From Escherichia coli (lineage in GTDB: Bacteria > Pseudomonadota > Gammaproteobacteria > Enterobacterales > Enterobacteriaceae), in assembly GCF_016026235.1 (NCBI RefSeq), contig NZ_CP065613.1: 64,000 bases of DNA. One strand, written 5' to 3'. Positions 3,001-9,000 of the stretch are shown here, in pieces. Position 1 is the stretch's first letter; each line of letters begins with the position of its first letter. The position numbers are program-made.

Positions 3001-6000
3001 CTGAGGGAAACTTAATACCAGCTTTTGTTCACTGAAGTCGAAATGGCTTGAGGCCTGGGGAATGATTTCGTCAAACGGCACGCAGGCTTCGGCAGGCACC
3101 AGATTGAGGGCCGGAAAGCTTTCAACGCGCACGCCCATCTCTGCCAGTTGCGTCCGGCTAAGGCAAGGCACAAGGGATTCCCCCATCGCTTTGCGCTGTG
3201 CTTCTGTGGCCTCTTTAAATTCCAGTGTGCGGGTTTCCATTCTCTGTTCATTGACGTAAACAGAGACACGATAGATGCCGGGTAACTGCTGTTCCTGGCC
3301 TTTTTCGAACATCGTTAAATCGACATGCTGGCCCACACCCTGAACGTCCTCCAGGAATTTGGGGTTAAACTTTCCGGCATGTGCAGAAAACGTGCTGGCA
3401 ACAGCAACCGCCACCACAGAGATAGAAAAGGAAGAAAAAGTACGTGAAACGGTCTTCCGTGACATTGAGCAATTTCTCCTGAAAAGGTATTAATCAATCA
3501 ACATTTTTAGTCATCATTTCCGCTGACGATCCAAAGTCATTGATAGTGTTATATTTAATCTTCGAAACGCTACCTGCCCCAGCGGGTAATGTAATATTTA
3601 ATGACCCTTTTGCGGGTACCATGCCGGCTTTTTCAATTTCTTTGTCATTCGCAAAAAATTGATTAAAGGTAATATTAAAAACGGTGGGGTTATCGACACG
3701 GATCTGATTACCGCTACGCGTAAATCGCAGTTCGTTTGGCGCGGTTTTTACATCACCCTGTAACCCTGCCGGGCGATAAAACAGTTTGATGCGGGTGCGA
3801 ACAGCAATCTGTAATACATTTTTGTTTTCGCTGTCGTCACTTTTAGACGGAATGGCTTTCACATTAACCCAGTAGACCGATTCGCGATCCTGCGGCAGGC
3901 CAGGGGTGGTATTTACAATACGCAATATATTGTTTTTTCCAGGATCGAGCCTGAACAACGGCGGGGTAATTATAAACGGTGTTTTTTTGCTGCCCGCGGC
4001 ATCATCCACCCAGGACTGGATCAGAAACTCTTCCGTCTTACTTTTATTCTGTACGGTCAGCGAGGCTTCTTTCTTACTGCCATCATAAATCACACGGGTA
4101 GCACTAAGCCCAACGCCCCCCGCCAGAACTGACTGGGAGAGGAACAGAGACAGAGCCAACGCAACAAATTTACTTTTCATCATTCGATCCATGAATTTTG
4201 ACGACTAATGGCGGCAATTACGCCGCCATGGGTAAAACAGACGATTACTCGTAAGACAGGTTGAAATCGACCTGCGCATTGCCGTAACCGGTCGTTACCG
4301 TTGCCAGAGTTGAAACGTAGTTGGCGGTAAAGTAGAGAACCGTCTGGCCTTTACTCAGATCAACACTTGCTTTACCACCGTTAAGAGCGACCAGGGTGTT
4401 GCTGTTATCATAAATACCGATACCAACACCTTTCGCCGCACCGGCTTCAGTACTAACAGAAATCAGATCAGATTGATCTGCATCACCGACACCGCTAAAG
4501 CTCACATTGGCTTTTTTCATCGTAGTGGTATCGCAGTCTTCCAGTTTAATTTCGAAGGGTTTTGCCGGGGATTTATCACCAACCGCAGCAAATACAGATT
4601 TTTGTACCTGACCCAACACAACTTCCTGATTCTGAGAGTCAACGGACAGTACGCAAGGTGAATCCACGATCTCGCCTGTAAATTTAACCGTGCCGTCACC
4701 AGACTCTGCTGCGAATACAGTGCCAGAAGTTAACGCCAGTGCGGTTAAGGCAAAAACGACCTTTTTCATGAAAAACTCCATTTAAAAAATTACATTAAAA
4801 AGAAAATCTTGATGTATCAAAATCGACAACTTTGAAGGAAGGATTATACAATTAAATACGAATAATAAAATTATACGAATAATATATTAATAGCACATCC
4901 AATTTTAAATCTTAAAAAAAATCATTGCGTTACATTTTTACATAAAAAGCTATCGTTTATTTTTAGGAATAAATAAATATAAAATATCAATTAAACAAAA
5001 CAAAAACATTCACCACACAAATAATAAGATAAAATATTTTCATTTTTATTCTTTAAAATGTAATAAAAAAGGAGGATTTCCTCTGAGGGATCCCCAGAAA
5101 ATTTAGTAAACCATTATCATATTGGTATACCGTTGCTGTAGAACTTTCAGCCCTGCGTCAAGTGACAGTGTGTTTAGTATGAGTGGAGAATGTCGAATCA
5201 CATTCTCCGCCAGTTTTAATAACGAGATGACTCGCCTGTGCTTCACTGTATTTGCCTGATATTTATGATGTATCCCTTTGTTTTCCAGGCTGAAACCGCT
5301 TAACCACATAATGATACTGGCTAATGTTGCGATCAGACTCAATACCGTGACCCGCCCGGATGAATGACTGGCACCAAACCGTAGTCCAAATCCCCAGCGA
5401 GGATTTTTTTCATCCCTGAAATTTTGCTCAATTTGCATTCTACGGCTGTATAATTTCATTACCTGTTTTGGCGAGAACTCAGTACTGTTTGTGAAAATAA
5501 ACCATGGTGATTTCCCGGCAGTACGAGCTTTAGCCGTCACCGATGGTCTGGTTGCTCTTTCCTTCGAGCGTTTAAATCTACGACCTTTAGGCTTACTTTT
5601 ATAAAGATAAAAATGCCCTTCATGTTGTGCATTTTTATCTCGACCCAGCAGGCCTTCACCTAAATAAATTGCTGTCGTTGATGCTTTTGTGCCTGAGTCC
5701 GACACCTTTTCCCAGCCATTACCAACATTGTAATAATGATTGCCCAGTACCCGGCAAATATAGGTCCAGCCACGGGAGCGGAGCTGTTGGAACCATCGCC
5801 CCTGAAAACCGGCATCTGTAATAACAATGACATCAGTCCCGGGGGAAAAGCACTCAGCAAGCGATTCCAGAAAACGCTCATGTACATCTGCATTCGCTGT
5901 CTGTGATGATGGAACGACACAACTCATCAACGGTAAAGAACGCCCGTCACATGCCAGGCTTGCCCGCAAAAGCTGAAAACGAGAGGCATGATAAGCACTC

Positions 6001-9000
6001 CAGTCAATGAGTATCACAACACGAGACATTCCCCGCGTAATCTTTTGGGTAATTCGCTGAAAAATGGTGGAAACCTCATTTTGCAAATGTCGATTCCCCA
6101 ACAGTCGATCCACCCGCTTTATTTTGTTTTTAACTGATGCCGTACCGGTTAAATGACGCCCGATACTGGTAAGTGTGAGGGAAGCGCCATTTATTACAGC
6201 ATTAGTTGCGTCAATCAGTGATTTTTGACGGTAAAGATGCAAAGGGGCCAGTATGTTGTTAAGGAAATTTTGGCATAATGAACGTGCAGGCATAGTGGTG
6301 ATCTCCTTGAAATTGTTAGCACAATCAATTAGATCACATCTCACTATGCCTGTCTTGTTTTCTGGGGATTCCTCAGAGGATTTCCTCCCCCTTTCGTTCA
6401 AAATCTGTAGTTTCTGGCTAAATATGCGCCTCACGCAATACTTTCTGCTCTGGCTGACGAATCGTCGTAGAAAGCGCCAATGACAGAATCAGCAGAGCAA
6501 AGATGACGTAGAACGTCACATAGAAGCCGCCAAACAGTGAGGCAATAATCGAACCACAAATGCTACCGATACCGAAACCGAGGTAAATCACACCGTAGTT
6601 TTTCGCCAGGTTATTGAGGCCGAAGAACTCACTGACCAGTGACGGAAAGACGGTAATAGTGCCGCCAAAGTTAAATGCCACGCAGGCAATCGCTGCAAAG
6701 AACATCACTGCATTCAATGGTGCAAACAGCAGGGCCGCCATACCCACCAGCGAAATTACCTGACCAATGGTGATAACACGGATACGGGCGATTTTGTCAG
6801 ACAGAATGCCCAGCACCAGACGACCTGAAAGGTTAGCAATAGAAATAACCGTTACTGCGTTGGCTGCGGAAATTGCATCAAGATGCGCCAGGCTCTGAGC
6901 AATATCTTTCGCCACACCAATCACATACAGACCGCTCATGCAGGCAGTAAGGAACATCACCGCTAACATCCAGTACTGCGGTTTACGCATCGACTCTGCC
7001 AGCGTGTAATCTTTCTCCACTACGCCATTGCTGGTTTTCACTTCCTGTTTTGGTGCGTCTTTCATTAACGTTGCGCCGAAAACAATCATCACCAGCGCAA
7101 TCGCTCCCCAAATCACAAAGGTTTTTTCCAGACCGACCGTTTCCAGCAGCTGCGTGTCGATAAATTTGAAACCCAGGCTACCCAGACCATAAGAACCGAT
7201 AGCGAACGCGGAGATCAGACCTTTACGCTCCGGGAACCACTTCACGCAGTTAGAGAGCGTCAGCAGGTAACCCGCGCCATCCGCCAGACCGACCAGCACA
7301 CCGGCGCTTAACCACAGCATCATCAGGTTGTCAGAATGCGCTGTCAGGAAGAACCCTAATCCCAGCAAAATGCCGGAAGCGATGGTGACGCGTTTAACAC
7401 CAAAACGTTCCTGCAATTTGCCCGCAACAGAAGACGAAATTGCCAGCCCCAGACTTAACAAGCCGAAAGAGAAAGCGACCTGGCTTACCGGCGCATCCAG
7501 CTTGGCGGAAAGCGCGCCGTTAAACAGGCTCCAGGTATAAACCGACCCCAGCGCAAACTGGGTAATGATAGTACCGATGAGTGTCAGCCAGCGGGTACGC
7601 TGATAATTTGAAGGTGTCATGGCAGTATTCCTGCAGTAATAAAAAGGAAAAATCTCTGCCGACAACCATAACGAAGTGCACTTTATGCCTGGGGAAAAAC
7701 GGCATGAAATGCCATCAGAACGGAATGAAATGCCTTAGTTCAGGAATGAATGACGCGACAATTATTCACCAAATTTATTATTTGGTAAGTTAGCACCCAC
7801 TATCGCCACAACTATTGTTATCCAATGGTTTCAATTGTGATTGTTACGTTAAAATCTGGCACTAACCCCCATCGTATACAGATAATCGCTATTGTTAGTG
7901 GTATTTTCTGCCTGAGATAGCGCGGCATAGGCGGCAATATTTTGATTGAGCAACATATCAGCGCCTACGGTGACATCCAGCCAGTTGCCGTTCTGGTTTG
8001 TCGCCGTCATCCGGCTCAGGCCTGATTGCGCCTTCCAGATATTCTCGCCAAATTGCTGGTTATAGCTGATTTGCGCCCAGGGTCGGAGATCGCCAAGCCG
8101 GGAGTCAACACGCCAGCCTAAGGTACTCACGCTGGCATGCCATAACGGATCGGTCAGCGTGGTAGTACTGTCGCCAAACTCGTTATACATCGAGGTGGTT
8201 GTGCCATCGTAATGTAATGCCGCGACCGGGCCAGTTGTAACCTGTTCATATAAAGGAAAATTCCAGCCCATACTCATACTGCTGGTCACATCCACAGGGG
8301 TTTCTTCCGCCAGATTGACTTCCAGTCCCAGCGCCCTTTGGCTACTTTGAATACGTTGCGACAAAATATCGTTGTAATCAGGTTGATGATCACTATCCCA
8401 GGTGTAACGCTCTGTGGAATGCCCGGGTTGCGTATCAACGATATATTCTTGTTGCCAGGCGTAAGCTGTGTTGAGAAAAAAGGCACTGATTACCACACTC
8501 GCCAGCAGGCTTAGCTGCCAGCGACCACCGCTTTTTTTTATGATCATTAACACGACTCCAGGGAAGAGCCGAATTCGGCAATATTATTGTCATTGTATGA
8601 AGGATATCGGGCATAGTAGCCCTGTATTAAATATTGACTTTTTCACCGATGCGTCAAGAAAAGCGGCTGAAATTTTTACGATCGGGTACATAGCGAGGGA
8701 AAGTATGGAACGTTGCGGCTGGGTGAGTCAGGACCCGCTTTATATTGCCTACCATGATAATGAGTGGGGCGTGCCTGAAACTGACAGTAAAAAACTGTTC
8801 GAAATGATCTGCCTGGAAGGGCAGCAGGCTGGGTTATCGTGGATCACCGTCCTCAAAAAACGCGAAAACTATCGCGCCTGCTTTCATCAGTTCGATCCGG
8901 TGAAGGTTGCCGCAATGCAGGAAGAGGATGTCGAAAGACTGGTACAGGACGCCGGGATTATCCGCCATCGCGGGAAAATTCAGGCAATTATTGGTAATGC

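What the first reader, a model, noticed from the sequence alone, without database searches (positions are those of the whole stretch)
5083..6376. Architecture of the IS10-like element: near-perfect 19-bp inverted repeats, YREK transposase, GATC sites at one end and near the transposase start
The ends resemble IS10 termini from memory and the transposase carries the IS4-family Y(2)R(3)E(6)K signature. The transposase-distal end contains GATC (gggatcccc) while the other end has gattc instead. Two further GATC sites lie within ~50 bp upstream of the transposase start (6293..6350). This mirrors the Dam-methylation control known for IS10 and may mean replication-coupled transposition.
Basis: partly seen in the sequence, partly recalled or inferred. 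Interest (0 to 1): 0.35.

Follow-up and report, generated by a model that had tools for sequence, protein, structure and literature searches.

The report
ISEc60: IS10-like element with Dam sites
This is an intact copy of the catalogued but unstudied insertion sequence ISEc60, a distant relative of IS10 that keeps IS10's Dam-methylation sites, antisense-RNA hairpin and promoter layout at the same positions. It therefore probably couples its jumping to DNA replication as IS10 does, which makes it a new member of a known kind rather than a new mechanism.

Summary
Window 5083-6376 is a 1294-bp insertion sequence, 100% identical to copies that NCBI annotation names ISEc60. It has 18/19-matching terminal repeats and a 396-aa DDE/YREK transposase that is 35% identical to IS10's. 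The single repeat mismatch creates GATC at bp 7-10 of the transposase-distal end, as in the IS10 inside end, and destroys it at the other end.

The upstream GATC at 6332-6335 lies in TGATCTAAT, the counterpart of IS10's pIN -10 (TGATCAAAT). An xxGACA -35 sits 17 bp upstream. In 27 diverged lineages:
- the distal-end GATC is present in 22/23;
- the proximal end has GATC in only 2/27, destroyed by several different substitutions;
- the -10 GATC is present in 25/27.

The second upstream GATC (6300-6303) is not conserved. It is the base-pairing partner of the first in a 66-nt hairpin that buries the start codon. That hairpin is the counterpart of IS10's RNA-OUT and fold-back structure and is supported by covariation.

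IS10-type Dam control is therefore well supported by homology but untested experimentally.

Differences from IS10: a 10-bp rather than 9-bp target duplication, insertion at the apex of GC-rich hairpins (here the yhjX terminator), and no IHF-site segment.

Novelty is low: a new member of a known kind.

The parts
5073..5082 (.). Left copy of the 10-bp target-site duplication, AGGATTTCCT.
   Evidence: It is identical to 6377-6386. The empty site with a single copy is present in 427 E. coli genomes.
5083..6376 (-). ISEc60, 1294 bp, of the IS4 family and IS10 subgroup.
   Evidence: It is 100% identical to annotated ISEc60 copies. The ends are defined by comparing several independent insertions.
5083..5101 (+). 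Transposase-distal terminal inverted repeat, the counterpart of the IS10 inside end: CTGAGGGATCCCCAGAAAA.
   Evidence: IS10's inside end is CTGAGAGATCCCC.
5089..5092 (.). Dam site (GATC) at bp 7-10 of the distal end.
   Evidence: It is at the same position as in the IS10 inside end. It is present in 22/23 diverged lineages, whereas the proximal end has it in only 2/27. Position 7 is the main asymmetric position between the two ends, differing in 19/23 lineages.
5103..6293 (-). Transposase gene, 396 aa plus stop. Catalytic residues are D97, D160 and E289, with YREK at 282-296.
   Evidence: Pfam DDE_Tnp_1 matches at 1.8e-20. NCBIfam transpos_IS4_2 scores 360 bits against a cut-off of 152. The protein is 35% identical to IS10 transposase over its full length, with the DDE residues aligned. 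The YREK motif was located.
6271..6279 (+). Predicted outward antisense promoter, the pOUT counterpart: an extended -10, TGgCATAAT.
   Evidence: The TGn+CAnAnT motif ends 15 nt past the A of the start codon in 13 of the 17 ISEc60-clade lineages. IS10's pOUT TAAAAT ends at +16. This is a prediction only.
6286..6362 (+). Predicted antisense RNA, the RNA-OUT counterpart: the hairpin followed by TCTTGTTTTCT.
   Evidence: The fold has dG -32 kcal/mol and z -5.3. The IS10 RNA-OUT control has dG -23.9 and z -5.2. The 5' and 3' ends are inferred.
6287..6352 (.). A 66-nt inverted repeat (hairpin). Its arms contain the -10/GATC on one side and the SD, GATC and ATG on the other.
   Evidence: (I20, I21). 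Covariation in 18 lineages gives 80.6% of cells paired, against 32-38% when the partners are slid. The basal helix is 93% paired, with compensatory changes in 7 of 11 pairs.
6291..6293 (-). Transposase start codon (ATG), inside the 3' arm of the hairpin.
   Evidence: PGAP places the CDS start here in identical copies.
6300..6303 (.). Second upstream GATC, between the SD and the ATG. It is not conserved.
   Evidence: It is present in 8/27 lineages and reads AATC in the 85%-identical relatives. It pairs with GATC 6332-6335 in the hairpin.
6303..6308 (-). Shine-Dalgarno sequence AAGGAG.
   Evidence: Sequence verified. It sits 9 nt upstream of the ATG.
6328..6333 (-). Predicted -10 hexamer TCTAAT of the transposase promoter, the pIN counterpart.
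   Evidence: It aligns with IS10's TCAAAT. The form TC(T/A)A(A/C)T preceded by TGA is conserved in 24 lineages, at 32-36 nt from the start codon. The generic promoter scan does not call it, because position 2 is C.
6332..6335 (.). Dam site (GATC) overlapping the promoter at positions -14 to -11.
   Evidence: It is the counterpart of IS10 GATC 67-70. A GATC occupies this place in 25/27 lineages. It is nearly invariant in alignment A2, while its pairing partner varies.
6351..6356 (-). Predicted -35 hexamer AAGACA, 17 bp from the -10.
   Evidence: The xxGACA form at a 17-bp spacing matches TTGACA at 4 or more of 6 positions in 20 of 25 lineages.
6358..6376 (-). Transposase-proximal terminal inverted repeat, the counterpart of the IS10 outside end: CTGAGGAATCCCCAGAAAA, with no GATC.
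   Evidence: IS10's outside end is CTGATGAATCCCC.
6377..6386 (.). Right copy of the 10-bp target-site duplication, AGGATTTCCT.
59029..60322 (-). Second, identical ISEc60 copy in the same orientation, with its own 10-bp duplication GGGACTCCCC.

Best explanation
Identity (shown). The element is an intact and probably active copy of ISEc60. This is a cut-and-paste DDE insertion sequence of the IS4 family, IS10 subgroup. Here it has inserted into the apex of the yhjX terminator hairpin with a 10-bp duplication.

Regulation (inferred from positional homology with IS10 and from conservation). The element most likely uses the layered control worked out for IS10.
1. The weak transposase promoter is AAGACA-17 bp-TCTAAT, with TG at -15/-14. 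A Dam site occupies -14 to -11, so full methylation would depress transcription.
2. The transposase-distal end carries a Dam site at bp 7-10, inside the region where IS10 transposase binds. The proximal end does not. Full methylation would therefore block use of that end.
3. Passage of a replication fork would leave both sites hemimethylated for a short time. That would switch on expression and end usage on one sister duplex and couple transposition to replication.
4. An outward promoter just inside the gene is predicted to make a ~75-nt antisense hairpin RNA. It would be complementary to the first ~35 nt of the transposase mRNA, including the SD and AUG, and would give copy-number-dependent inhibition.
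5. In transcripts that read in from outside, here from yhjX, the same inverted repeat folds and hides the SD and AUG.
For: Identity and integrity. There are 100% identical copies in several genomes, up to 38 places in one. The ORF is intact with DDE and YREK. The empty site is known, and there are two identical copies in the window.

Homology of the control region. ISEc60's OE-to-ATG region aligns with IS10's apart from a ~25-bp deletion. TGATCTAAT corresponds to IS10 TGATCAAAT, and the -35 sits at 17 bp in both.

Conservation in 27 lineages diverged by at least 15% in this region, with transposases 33-86% identical:
- The distal-end GATC is present in 22/23.
- The proximal end has GATC in 2/27. 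It is destroyed as GAATC, GGTTC or GGCTC, and as GTATC in ISEc29.
- The end asymmetry is concentrated at position 7.
- The -10 GATC is present in 25/27, even though it puts a C at the normally invariant A of the -10 hexamer.
- Its hairpin partner is free to vary.

Hairpin. dG is -32 with z -5.3, and covariation supports it. The start codon lies in the 3' arm in every lineage folded. The antisense -10 sits at +15 in 13 of the 17 ISEc60-clade lineages, against +16 in IS10.

IS10 mechanism from the literature. Dam sites control transposase binding and the transposase promoter, giving replication coupling and chromatid selectivity (PMC5371812, citing Roberts et al. 1985). The antisense RNA blocks the translation initiation region (PMC4265352).

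Host. The flanks are E. coli DNA. That E. coli has Dam is established knowledge.
Against: - Nothing here measures methylation, transcription or transposition.
- The generic promoter scan does not report the proposed promoter, because its -10 has C at position 2.
- Rfam's RNA-OUT model does not match ISEc60 at E<=1, although it scores 98.8 bits on IS10.
- GATC is not over-represented in the element overall.
- In more distant lineages the two kinds of GATC uncouple. Three lineages, including one on Azotobacter plasmids, keep the end asymmetry but lack the -10 GATC. One keeps the -10 GATC but lacks GATC at both ends. Three lack all of them. An Oceanimonas lineage has the GATC at the opposite end.
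- Part of the conservation could therefore reflect transposase-end recognition or shared ancestry rather than Dam.
Confidence: 0.8

Rival explanations
1. The GATC sites are inherited sequence with no Dam-dependent role in ISEc60. On this view the distal-end G at position 7 only serves to let the transposase tell the two ends apart. The -10 GATC persists because it belongs to a promoter and hairpin that are constrained for other reasons.
For: The end asymmetry persists in an element on plasmids of Azotobacter, in the Pseudomonadales. From general knowledge that order is not expected to have Dam. The asymmetry also persists in two GC-rich metagenomic lineages that have lost the -10 GATC. The -10 GATC sits inside a covarying helix.
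Against: The proximal end loses GATC by at least four different substitutions at two positions, while every other core position stays fixed. This pattern points to avoidance of the tetranucleotide, not preference for one base. The -10 GATC is invariant while its pairing partner varies, as GATC, GGTC, AATC or GACC. It also holds a promoter-weakening C at -11. In IS10 the same two sites were shown experimentally to mediate Dam control (PMC5371812, PMC4265352).
Confidence: 0.13
2. Both GATC sites upstream of the start codon are regulatory. The proximal one (6300-6303) would modulate translation initiation or the antisense promoter through methylation.
For: It lies between the SD and the ATG and within the predicted antisense transcript. 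It recurs in 8 of 27 lineages.
Against: It is absent from the closest relatives, at 85% and 82% DNA identity, and from 19 of 27 lineages. IS10 has no counterpart. Because GATC is self-complementary, perfect pairing opposite the conserved GATC produces a second GATC automatically. It is downstream of both predicted promoters' core elements.
Confidence: 0.05
3. The copy is a dead relic, and the architecture has no present function in this genome.
For: Some relatives are pseudogenes: L003, L004 and L007 carry frameshifts.
Against: The ORF is intact. The two window copies are identical to each other and to copies in other strains. Each has a perfect 10-bp duplication. The site is empty in 427 genomes. 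One genome holds up to 38 places. All of this points to recent activity.
Confidence: 0.02

Closest known systems
IS10 (IS10-Right of Tn10; annotated in records as IS10A / ISVsa5)
   Same: - 5'-CTGA...TCCCC termini.
- A single ~400-aa DDE/YREK transposase, 35% identical over its full length.
- GATC at bp 7-10 of the transposase-distal (inside) end only.
- GATC overlapping the transposase promoter -10 in TGATC(A/T)AAT, with a -35 at 17 bp.
- A ~66-70-nt hairpin that encloses the start codon.
- An outward -10 ending 15-16 nt inside the gene.
   Different: - ISEc60 is 1294 bp against IS10's 1329 bp.
- It lacks the ~25-bp segment that holds IS10's IHF site, and no IHF consensus is found in ISEc60.
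- Its target duplication is 10 bp, not 9 bp.
- Its targets are GGG-N4-CCC at the apex of GC-rich hairpins, which from memory differs from IS10's GCTNAGC hot-spot consensus.
- The Rfam RNA-OUT model does not recognise its hairpin.
- It has an extra, non-conserved GATC near the SD.
ISSfl1 and unnamed relatives in Photorhabdus, Xenorhabdus, Erwinia, Klebsiella and Salmonella arizonae (the ISEc60 clade of the IS10 subgroup)
   Same: Transposases are 43-86% identical. The ends are the same, with the same GATC asymmetry, the same -10 GATC and the same start-codon hairpin. They also make a 10-bp duplication at hairpin apices.
   Different: They have different symmetric target triplets: CCC-N4-GGG, CGC-N4-GCG or GGC-N4-GCC. 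Some have a 12-13-bp longer leader.
IS50 of Tn5
   Same: It is an IS4-family element whose transposase promoter is repressed by Dam methylation at GATC sites (PMC4265352).
   Different: It belongs to a different subgroup and has no antisense RNA (PMC4265352). It uses an inhibitor protein instead, and its ends are different.

Membership tests
IS4 family (ISfinder; De Palmenaer et al. 2008, PMC2266710) | Single-ORF DDE transposase with the DDE_Tnp_1 domain. | tested here: met
   Pfam PF01609 matches at 1.8e-20. NCBIfam transpos_IS4_2 scores 360 bits against a cut-off of 152. There is one uninterrupted 396-aa ORF.
IS4 family (ISfinder; De Palmenaer et al. 2008, PMC2266710) | Y(2)R(3)E(6)K signature in which the E is the DDE glutamate. 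| tested here: met
   YSRRMQIEQNFRDEK at residues 282-296. E289 aligns with IS10's catalytic-region E in MQIEETFRDLK.
IS4 family (ISfinder; De Palmenaer et al. 2008, PMC2266710) | Terminal inverted repeats and a target duplication of about one helical turn. | tested here: met
   The IRs match at 18/19 and the duplication is 10 bp.
IS10 subgroup of IS4 (PMC2266710, Table 1) | Size of 1200-1350 bp. | tested here: met
   The element is 1294 bp.
IS10 subgroup of IS4 (PMC2266710, Table 1) | 5'-CT termini. | tested here: met
   Both ends begin CTGAGG.
IS10 subgroup of IS4 (PMC2266710, Table 1) | Direct repeat of 9 bp. | tested here: not met
   All 10 ISEc60 insertions with intact flanks have 10 bp, as do 15 further exact cases in the clade. 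The IS10-proper clade gives 9 bp with the same procedure. This trait is descriptive rather than defining.
IS10 subgroup of IS4 (PMC2266710, Table 1) | Transposase related to IS10's over its full length. | tested here: met
   It is 35% identical over ~400 columns, with D97, D160 and E289 aligned. Relatives form a continuum down to IS10 itself.
IS10-type Dam control | GATC inside the transposase-binding part of the inside end and absent from the outside end. | tested here: met
   GATC lies at bp 7-10 of the distal end only, the same register as IS10. It is conserved in 22/23 lineages, against 2/27 for the proximal end.
IS10-type Dam control | GATC overlapping the -10 of the transposase promoter. 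| tested here: met
   This was tested at the level of positional homology. TGATCTAAT at 6336-6328 corresponds to IS10's TGATCAAAT, with a -35 at 17 bp, and is conserved in 25/27 lineages. The promoter itself has not been mapped.
IS10-type Dam control | The host methylates GATC (Dam). | tested here: met
   The flanks are 99.9% identical to the E. coli chromosome. That E. coli has Dam is established knowledge. Most relatives with named hosts come from Enterobacterales, Vibrionales and Alteromonadales, with a few from Oceanimonas.
IS10-type Dam control | Transposition and transposase expression rise in dam- cells or on hemimethylated DNA. | not testable with these tools
   This needs genetics or biochemistry.
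RNA-OUT (Rfam RF00240) | Match to the covariance model at its gathering score. | tested here: not met
   There is no RF00240 match at E<=1 in 4900-6600. As a positive control, IS10 scores 98.8 bits.
RNA-OUT (Rfam RF00240) | An outward-transcribed hairpin RNA complementary to the 5' end and start codon of the transposase mRNA. | tested here: inconclusive
   The hairpin is present and covaries. The antisense -10 sits at the conserved position. No transcript evidence is available.

The most novel reading that the evidence does not exclude
ISEc60 and its clade form a distinct branch of the IS10 subgroup that selects targets by shape. They insert with a 10-bp stagger centred on the loop of GC-rich hairpin-forming palindromes, often intrinsic terminators. 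The symmetric triplet differs from element to element, and the palindrome extends beyond the duplication with no conserved sequence. Together with Dam-gated activity just behind the replication fork, this could mean that these elements capture hairpins or cruciforms that extrude during replication. No paper found here describes either this target rule or the subgroup-wide conservation of the Dam-site layout with its exceptions.
Probability: 0.35. Interest if true: 0.5.

Novelty: new member of a known kind. Interest (0 to 1): 0.3.

Why it matters
IS10 is the textbook case of a transposon that senses replication through Dam methylation and limits itself with an antisense RNA. Finding the same sites, in the same register, in an element whose transposase is only 35% identical has two consequences. 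Across dozens of lineages, it shows that the whole control module is an old, selected feature of the subgroup rather than a peculiarity of Tn10. It also gives a ready set of natural variants for testing the model, including swapped ends, loss of one site, and both ends methylatable.

Practically, ISEc60 has expanded to dozens of copies in some diarrhoeagenic E. coli and sits in terminators next to virulence operons, here lpf. Knowing what gates its activity and where it lands helps in interpreting rearrangements in those genomes.

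Tried and rejected
- The generic sigma-70 scan found no promoter at the 5' end, because it requires A at -10 position 2. The promoter was instead assigned by homology with IS10.
- Rfam found no RNA-OUT match in ISEc60.
- I first read the flanking repeat as 9 bp or 12 bp (GAGGATTTCCTC). Comparison of independent copies and the empty site settled on 10 bp. The apparent 12 bp arises because the preferred target is G|GGG..CCC|C, which mimics the element's terminal C and G. The second window copy breaks the 12-bp reading.
- Composite-transposon reading of the two window copies: not pursued. 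Each copy has its own duplication, which indicates independent insertions.
- IHF site: none was found in ISEc60's proximal end, whereas IS10's is found at bp 30.
- Natural experiment on hosts without Dam: 11 look-ups of distant family representatives plus Azotobacter plasmids gave mixed results, and the metagenomic contigs have no host assignment. The test is inconclusive.
- Literature: there is no paper on ISEc60 regulation. One apparent hit was 'ISEc603'. The IS4-family review does not mention GATC or Dam, and its supplement text did not contain the member names searched.
- I could not identify the exact source strain. The nearest complete genome, FDAARGOS_943, has the lpfA1-side junction but a different partner on the other side.

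Full report
**What is at 5083-6376**

The stretch is one complete insertion sequence of 1294 bp with the transposase on the minus strand. The terminal repeats are CTGAGGGATCCCCAGAAAA (5083-5101) and CTGAGGAATCCCCAGAAAA (reverse complement of 6358-6376). They match at 18 of 19 positions. The element is flanked by a perfect 10-bp direct repeat, AGGATTTCCT, at 5073-5082 and 6377-6386.

A query built from the two flanks with a single repeat copy aligns end to end, without a gap, in 427 complete E. coli genomes between lpfA1 and yhjX. The best alignment is 99.9% identical. The element is therefore an insertion, and its limits are exact.

A second, base-for-base identical copy lies at 59029-60322 with its own 10-bp repeat, GGGACTCCCC. 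Copies identical over all 1294 bp occur on chromosomes and plasmids of several E. coli strains. One genome has up to 38 places. NCBI annotates them as 'IS4-like element ISEc60 family transposase'.

**The transposase**

The ORF from ATG 6293 to the stop codon at 5103-5105 encodes 396 residues.
- It matches Pfam DDE_Tnp_1.
- It matches the NCBIfam IS4 model at 360 bits against a cut-off of 152.
- It carries Y282-R285-E289-K296, the Y(2)R(3)E(6)K signature.
- It aligns over its full length with the IS10 transposase from plasmid R27 at 35% identity, with D97, D160 and E289 in invariant columns.

By the criteria of the IS4-family review (size 1200-1350 bp, 5'-CT ends, YREK; PMC2266710), it belongs to the IS10 subgroup. 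The exception is that the review lists a 9-bp duplication for that subgroup.

**The GATC sites**

The element has five GATCs, and composition predicts 4.9, so there is no enrichment.

*Distal end.* The only mismatch between the two terminal repeats is position 7. G at the distal end gives GGATCC, and A at the proximal end gives GAATCC. A genuine IS10 copy shows the same pattern in the same register. Its inside end is CTGAGAGATCCCC and its outside end is CTGATGAATCCCC.

*Promoter.* Counting from the proximal end, GATC at 42-45 (window 6335-6332) lies in TGATCTAAT. IS10 has TGATCAAAT at 66-74, where its transposase promoter's -10 lies. In both elements a hexamer resembling TTGACA sits exactly 17 bp upstream: AAGACA in ISEc60 and TGGATA in IS10. 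In this reading the GATC occupies -14 to -11. The T and G supply an extended -10 TG, and the C replaces the usual A at -11, which makes a weak promoter. The generic scan misses it for that reason.

*Near the start codon.* The third GATC (6300-6303) lies between the Shine-Dalgarno AAGGAG and the ATG.

**Is this more than resemblance?**

I collected 80 related loci from genomes of named species, with transposases 33-86% identical to ISEc60. I added two diverged E. coli relatives, IS10 and ISEc29, located the ends of each, and collapsed them to 27 lineages that differ by at least 15% in the end-to-start-codon region.

- The distal end has GATC at bp 7-10 in 22 of 23 lineages with both ends.
- The proximal end has GATC in only 2 of 27. 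It is abolished in different ways: GAATC, GGTTC and GGCTC, and GTATC in ISEc29.
- Within the otherwise almost invariant 13-bp core, position 7 differs between the two ends in 19 of 23 lineages.
- A GATC occupies the promoter position in 25 of 27 lineages, preceded by T in 24. It is followed by a -10-like hexamer, mostly TC(T/A)A(A/C)T but TCTTAT or TCTCAT in four lineages, and typically lies 32-36 nt before the start codon.
- The third GATC occurs in only 8 of 27 lineages and is AATC in the 85%-identical relative.

**The hairpin**

Positions 6287-6352 form a long inverted repeat (pairs I20 and I21). It folds at -32 kcal/mol as the plus-strand RNA (z = -5.3, 0 of 200 shuffles as stable). The minus-strand RNA folds similarly.

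The start codon and SD lie in one arm. The -10 with its GATC lies in the other. The two upstream GATCs pair with each other. Because GATC is self-complementary, perfect pairing opposite the conserved site creates the second one. This explains why it is common but dispensable.

All relatives examined fold the same way, with the start codon in the 3' arm. On an alignment of 18 lineages, 80.6% of cells are paired, against 32-38% when partners are slid by 1-3 columns. The basal helix is 93% paired, with compensatory changes in 7 of 11 pairs.

This is the layout of IS10's RNA-OUT stem-loop, which covers IS10 bp 46-115 (Rfam match at 98.8 bits; fold). The Rfam model itself does not detect ISEc60.

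On the antisense strand, an extended -10 (TGgCATAAT, 6271-6279) ends 15 nt past the A of the start codon. The same motif sits at the same offset in 13 of the 17 ISEc60-clade lineages, and IS10's known outward promoter hexamer ends at +16. That predicts an antisense RNA starting near 6286. It would run through the hairpin and end in the run TCTTGTTTTCT (6353-6363).

The predicted sense transcript would start near 6320-6321, opposite the hairpin loop. The two RNAs would then overlap by about 35 nt. From memory, this matches the IS10 geometry (RNA-IN from bp 81, RNA-OUT from bp 115).

**How it most likely works**

*Shown.* This is an intact IS10-subgroup element. Its termini, promoter-like motif, Dam sites and start-codon hairpin are positional counterparts of IS10's, and they are conserved across deep divergence.

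*Taken from the literature.* In IS10, Dam methylation controls both transposase binding at the end and transcription of the transposase gene. Fork passage therefore activates one daughter copy (PMC5371812, citing Roberts et al. 1985). An antisense RNA blocks the translation initiation region (PMC4265352).

*Inferred.* ISEc60 is regulated in the same ways. The read-through protection is directly relevant here. The element sits in the yhjX terminator, and yhjX is transcribed toward the proximal end in the sense direction of the transposase.

I put 0.8 on the statement as a whole. Most of the remaining doubt concerns whether methylation has the same quantitative effect.

**Limits and counter-evidence**

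A wider sample came from a search of 1.84 billion representative proteins, in which 441 clusters scored E<=1e-30. In more distant lineages the features come apart:
- Two lineages keep both features.
- Three keep the end asymmetry but have no promoter GATC. One of these is on Azotobacter plasmids.
- One keeps the promoter GATC but has none at either end.
- Three, one from a contig of 67% G+C, have no GATC at any of the three places, while keeping the xxTCCCC ends and the start-codon hairpin.
- An Oceanimonas lineage has the GATC at the proximal instead of the distal end and none at the promoter.

The GATC-less lineages show that the tetranucleotide is not needed for the fold or for the conserved end core, which favours a Dam-related reason where it is kept. 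The hosts of those contigs are unknown, however, and the Azotobacter case cuts the other way. I count this test as inconclusive.

**Differences from IS10**

ISEc60 lacks the ~25 bp that contain IS10's IHF site, and no IHF consensus is present.

Its duplication is 10 bp in all 10 ISEc60 insertions with intact flanks. It is also 10 bp in 15 further exact cases from the clade, including one 85%-identical relative. The same procedure gives 9 bp for eight IS10-clade insertions, and the Azotobacter element also makes 9 bp.

The duplicated 10 bp reads GGG-N4-CCC for ISEc60. It reads CCC-N4-GGG, CGC-N4-GCG or GGC-N4-GCC for other clade members. In most cases it forms the tip of a longer GC-rich palindrome whose outer part is not conserved, and many of these are followed by a T-run. 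IS10-clade sites show no such structure.

I found no description of this target rule in the papers searched. I could not consult ISfinder.

**Verdict**

One correction is needed: only one of the two upstream GATCs matters. The element is already catalogued and the mechanism is IS10's, so this is a new member of a known kind with modest interest. The subgroup-wide conservation of the Dam layout and the hairpin-apex targeting with a 10-bp stagger are the parts most worth a specialist's attention.

Noticed in passing
window 5067-5082 with 6377-6390; window 59019-59028 with 60323-60332; loci L001, L003, L005, L006, L008-L074, L090-L094: ISEc60 and its clade always make a 10-bp duplication, while the IS10-proper clade makes 9 bp. 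They insert at the tip of GC-rich hairpin-forming palindromes. The duplicated sequence is GGG-N4-CCC for ISEc60 and other symmetric triplets in relatives. The palindrome extends beyond the duplication, and many sites are intrinsic terminators. Window copy 1 splits the yhjX terminator (minus strand GGAGGAAATCCTCC followed by T6).
   Followed up: partly
window 59029-60322: A second ISEc60 copy is identical to the first and in the same orientation, 52.6 kb away, with its own duplication GGGACTCCCC. Two direct repeats of 1.3 kb could mediate deletion or inversion of the intervening segment.
   Followed up: partly
L005 401-2094 (pCFSAN029787_01) and L089 (RMDEC364 chromosome): Two ISEc60 copies lie head to tail, separated by exactly the 10-bp target sequence GGGATTTACC. 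The same 10 bp flanks the pair on the outer side in L005. This could be a repeated hit on the same hot spot or an unequal exchange, and I did not resolve which.
   Followed up: no
L001 3001-5926 (E. coli CFSAN029787 chromosome): Two ISEc60 copies are inserted at the same position of two neighbouring Ibs/Sib toxin-antitoxin repeats, each in the hairpin GCGGGGTTTCCCCCGC. This is consistent with a strong target hot spot.
   Followed up: no
L095 (E. coli FDAARGOS_943, 4147579-4153987): In the closest complete genome, the ISEc60 copy next to lpfA1 is joined on its other side to slyX/fkpA instead of yhjX. This indicates a rearrangement between ISEc60 copies in that strain. The window's own strain is not among the 5426 complete E. 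coli genomes searched.
   Followed up: partly
L053, L055, L057, L058 (Oceanimonas spp.): This lineage has the Dam-site layout reversed. GATC is at the transposase-proximal end, GGCTC at the distal end, and there is no GATC at the promoter position. Some copies have a GATC just before the start codon.
   Followed up: partly
L028, L050, L052, L066, L107: These individual elements carry GATC at both ends. On the IS10 model, the two ends would then be in opposite hemimethylation states after replication. They could serve as natural test cases.
   Followed up: no
window 3494-4781 and 6418-7665: The insertion lies between the lpf fimbrial operon (lpfA1 start at 4781, minus strand) and yhjX. It is about 300 bp upstream of lpfA1, in its AT-rich regulatory region, and could affect lpf expression. 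The transposase and any read-through point toward lpfA1.
   Followed up: no
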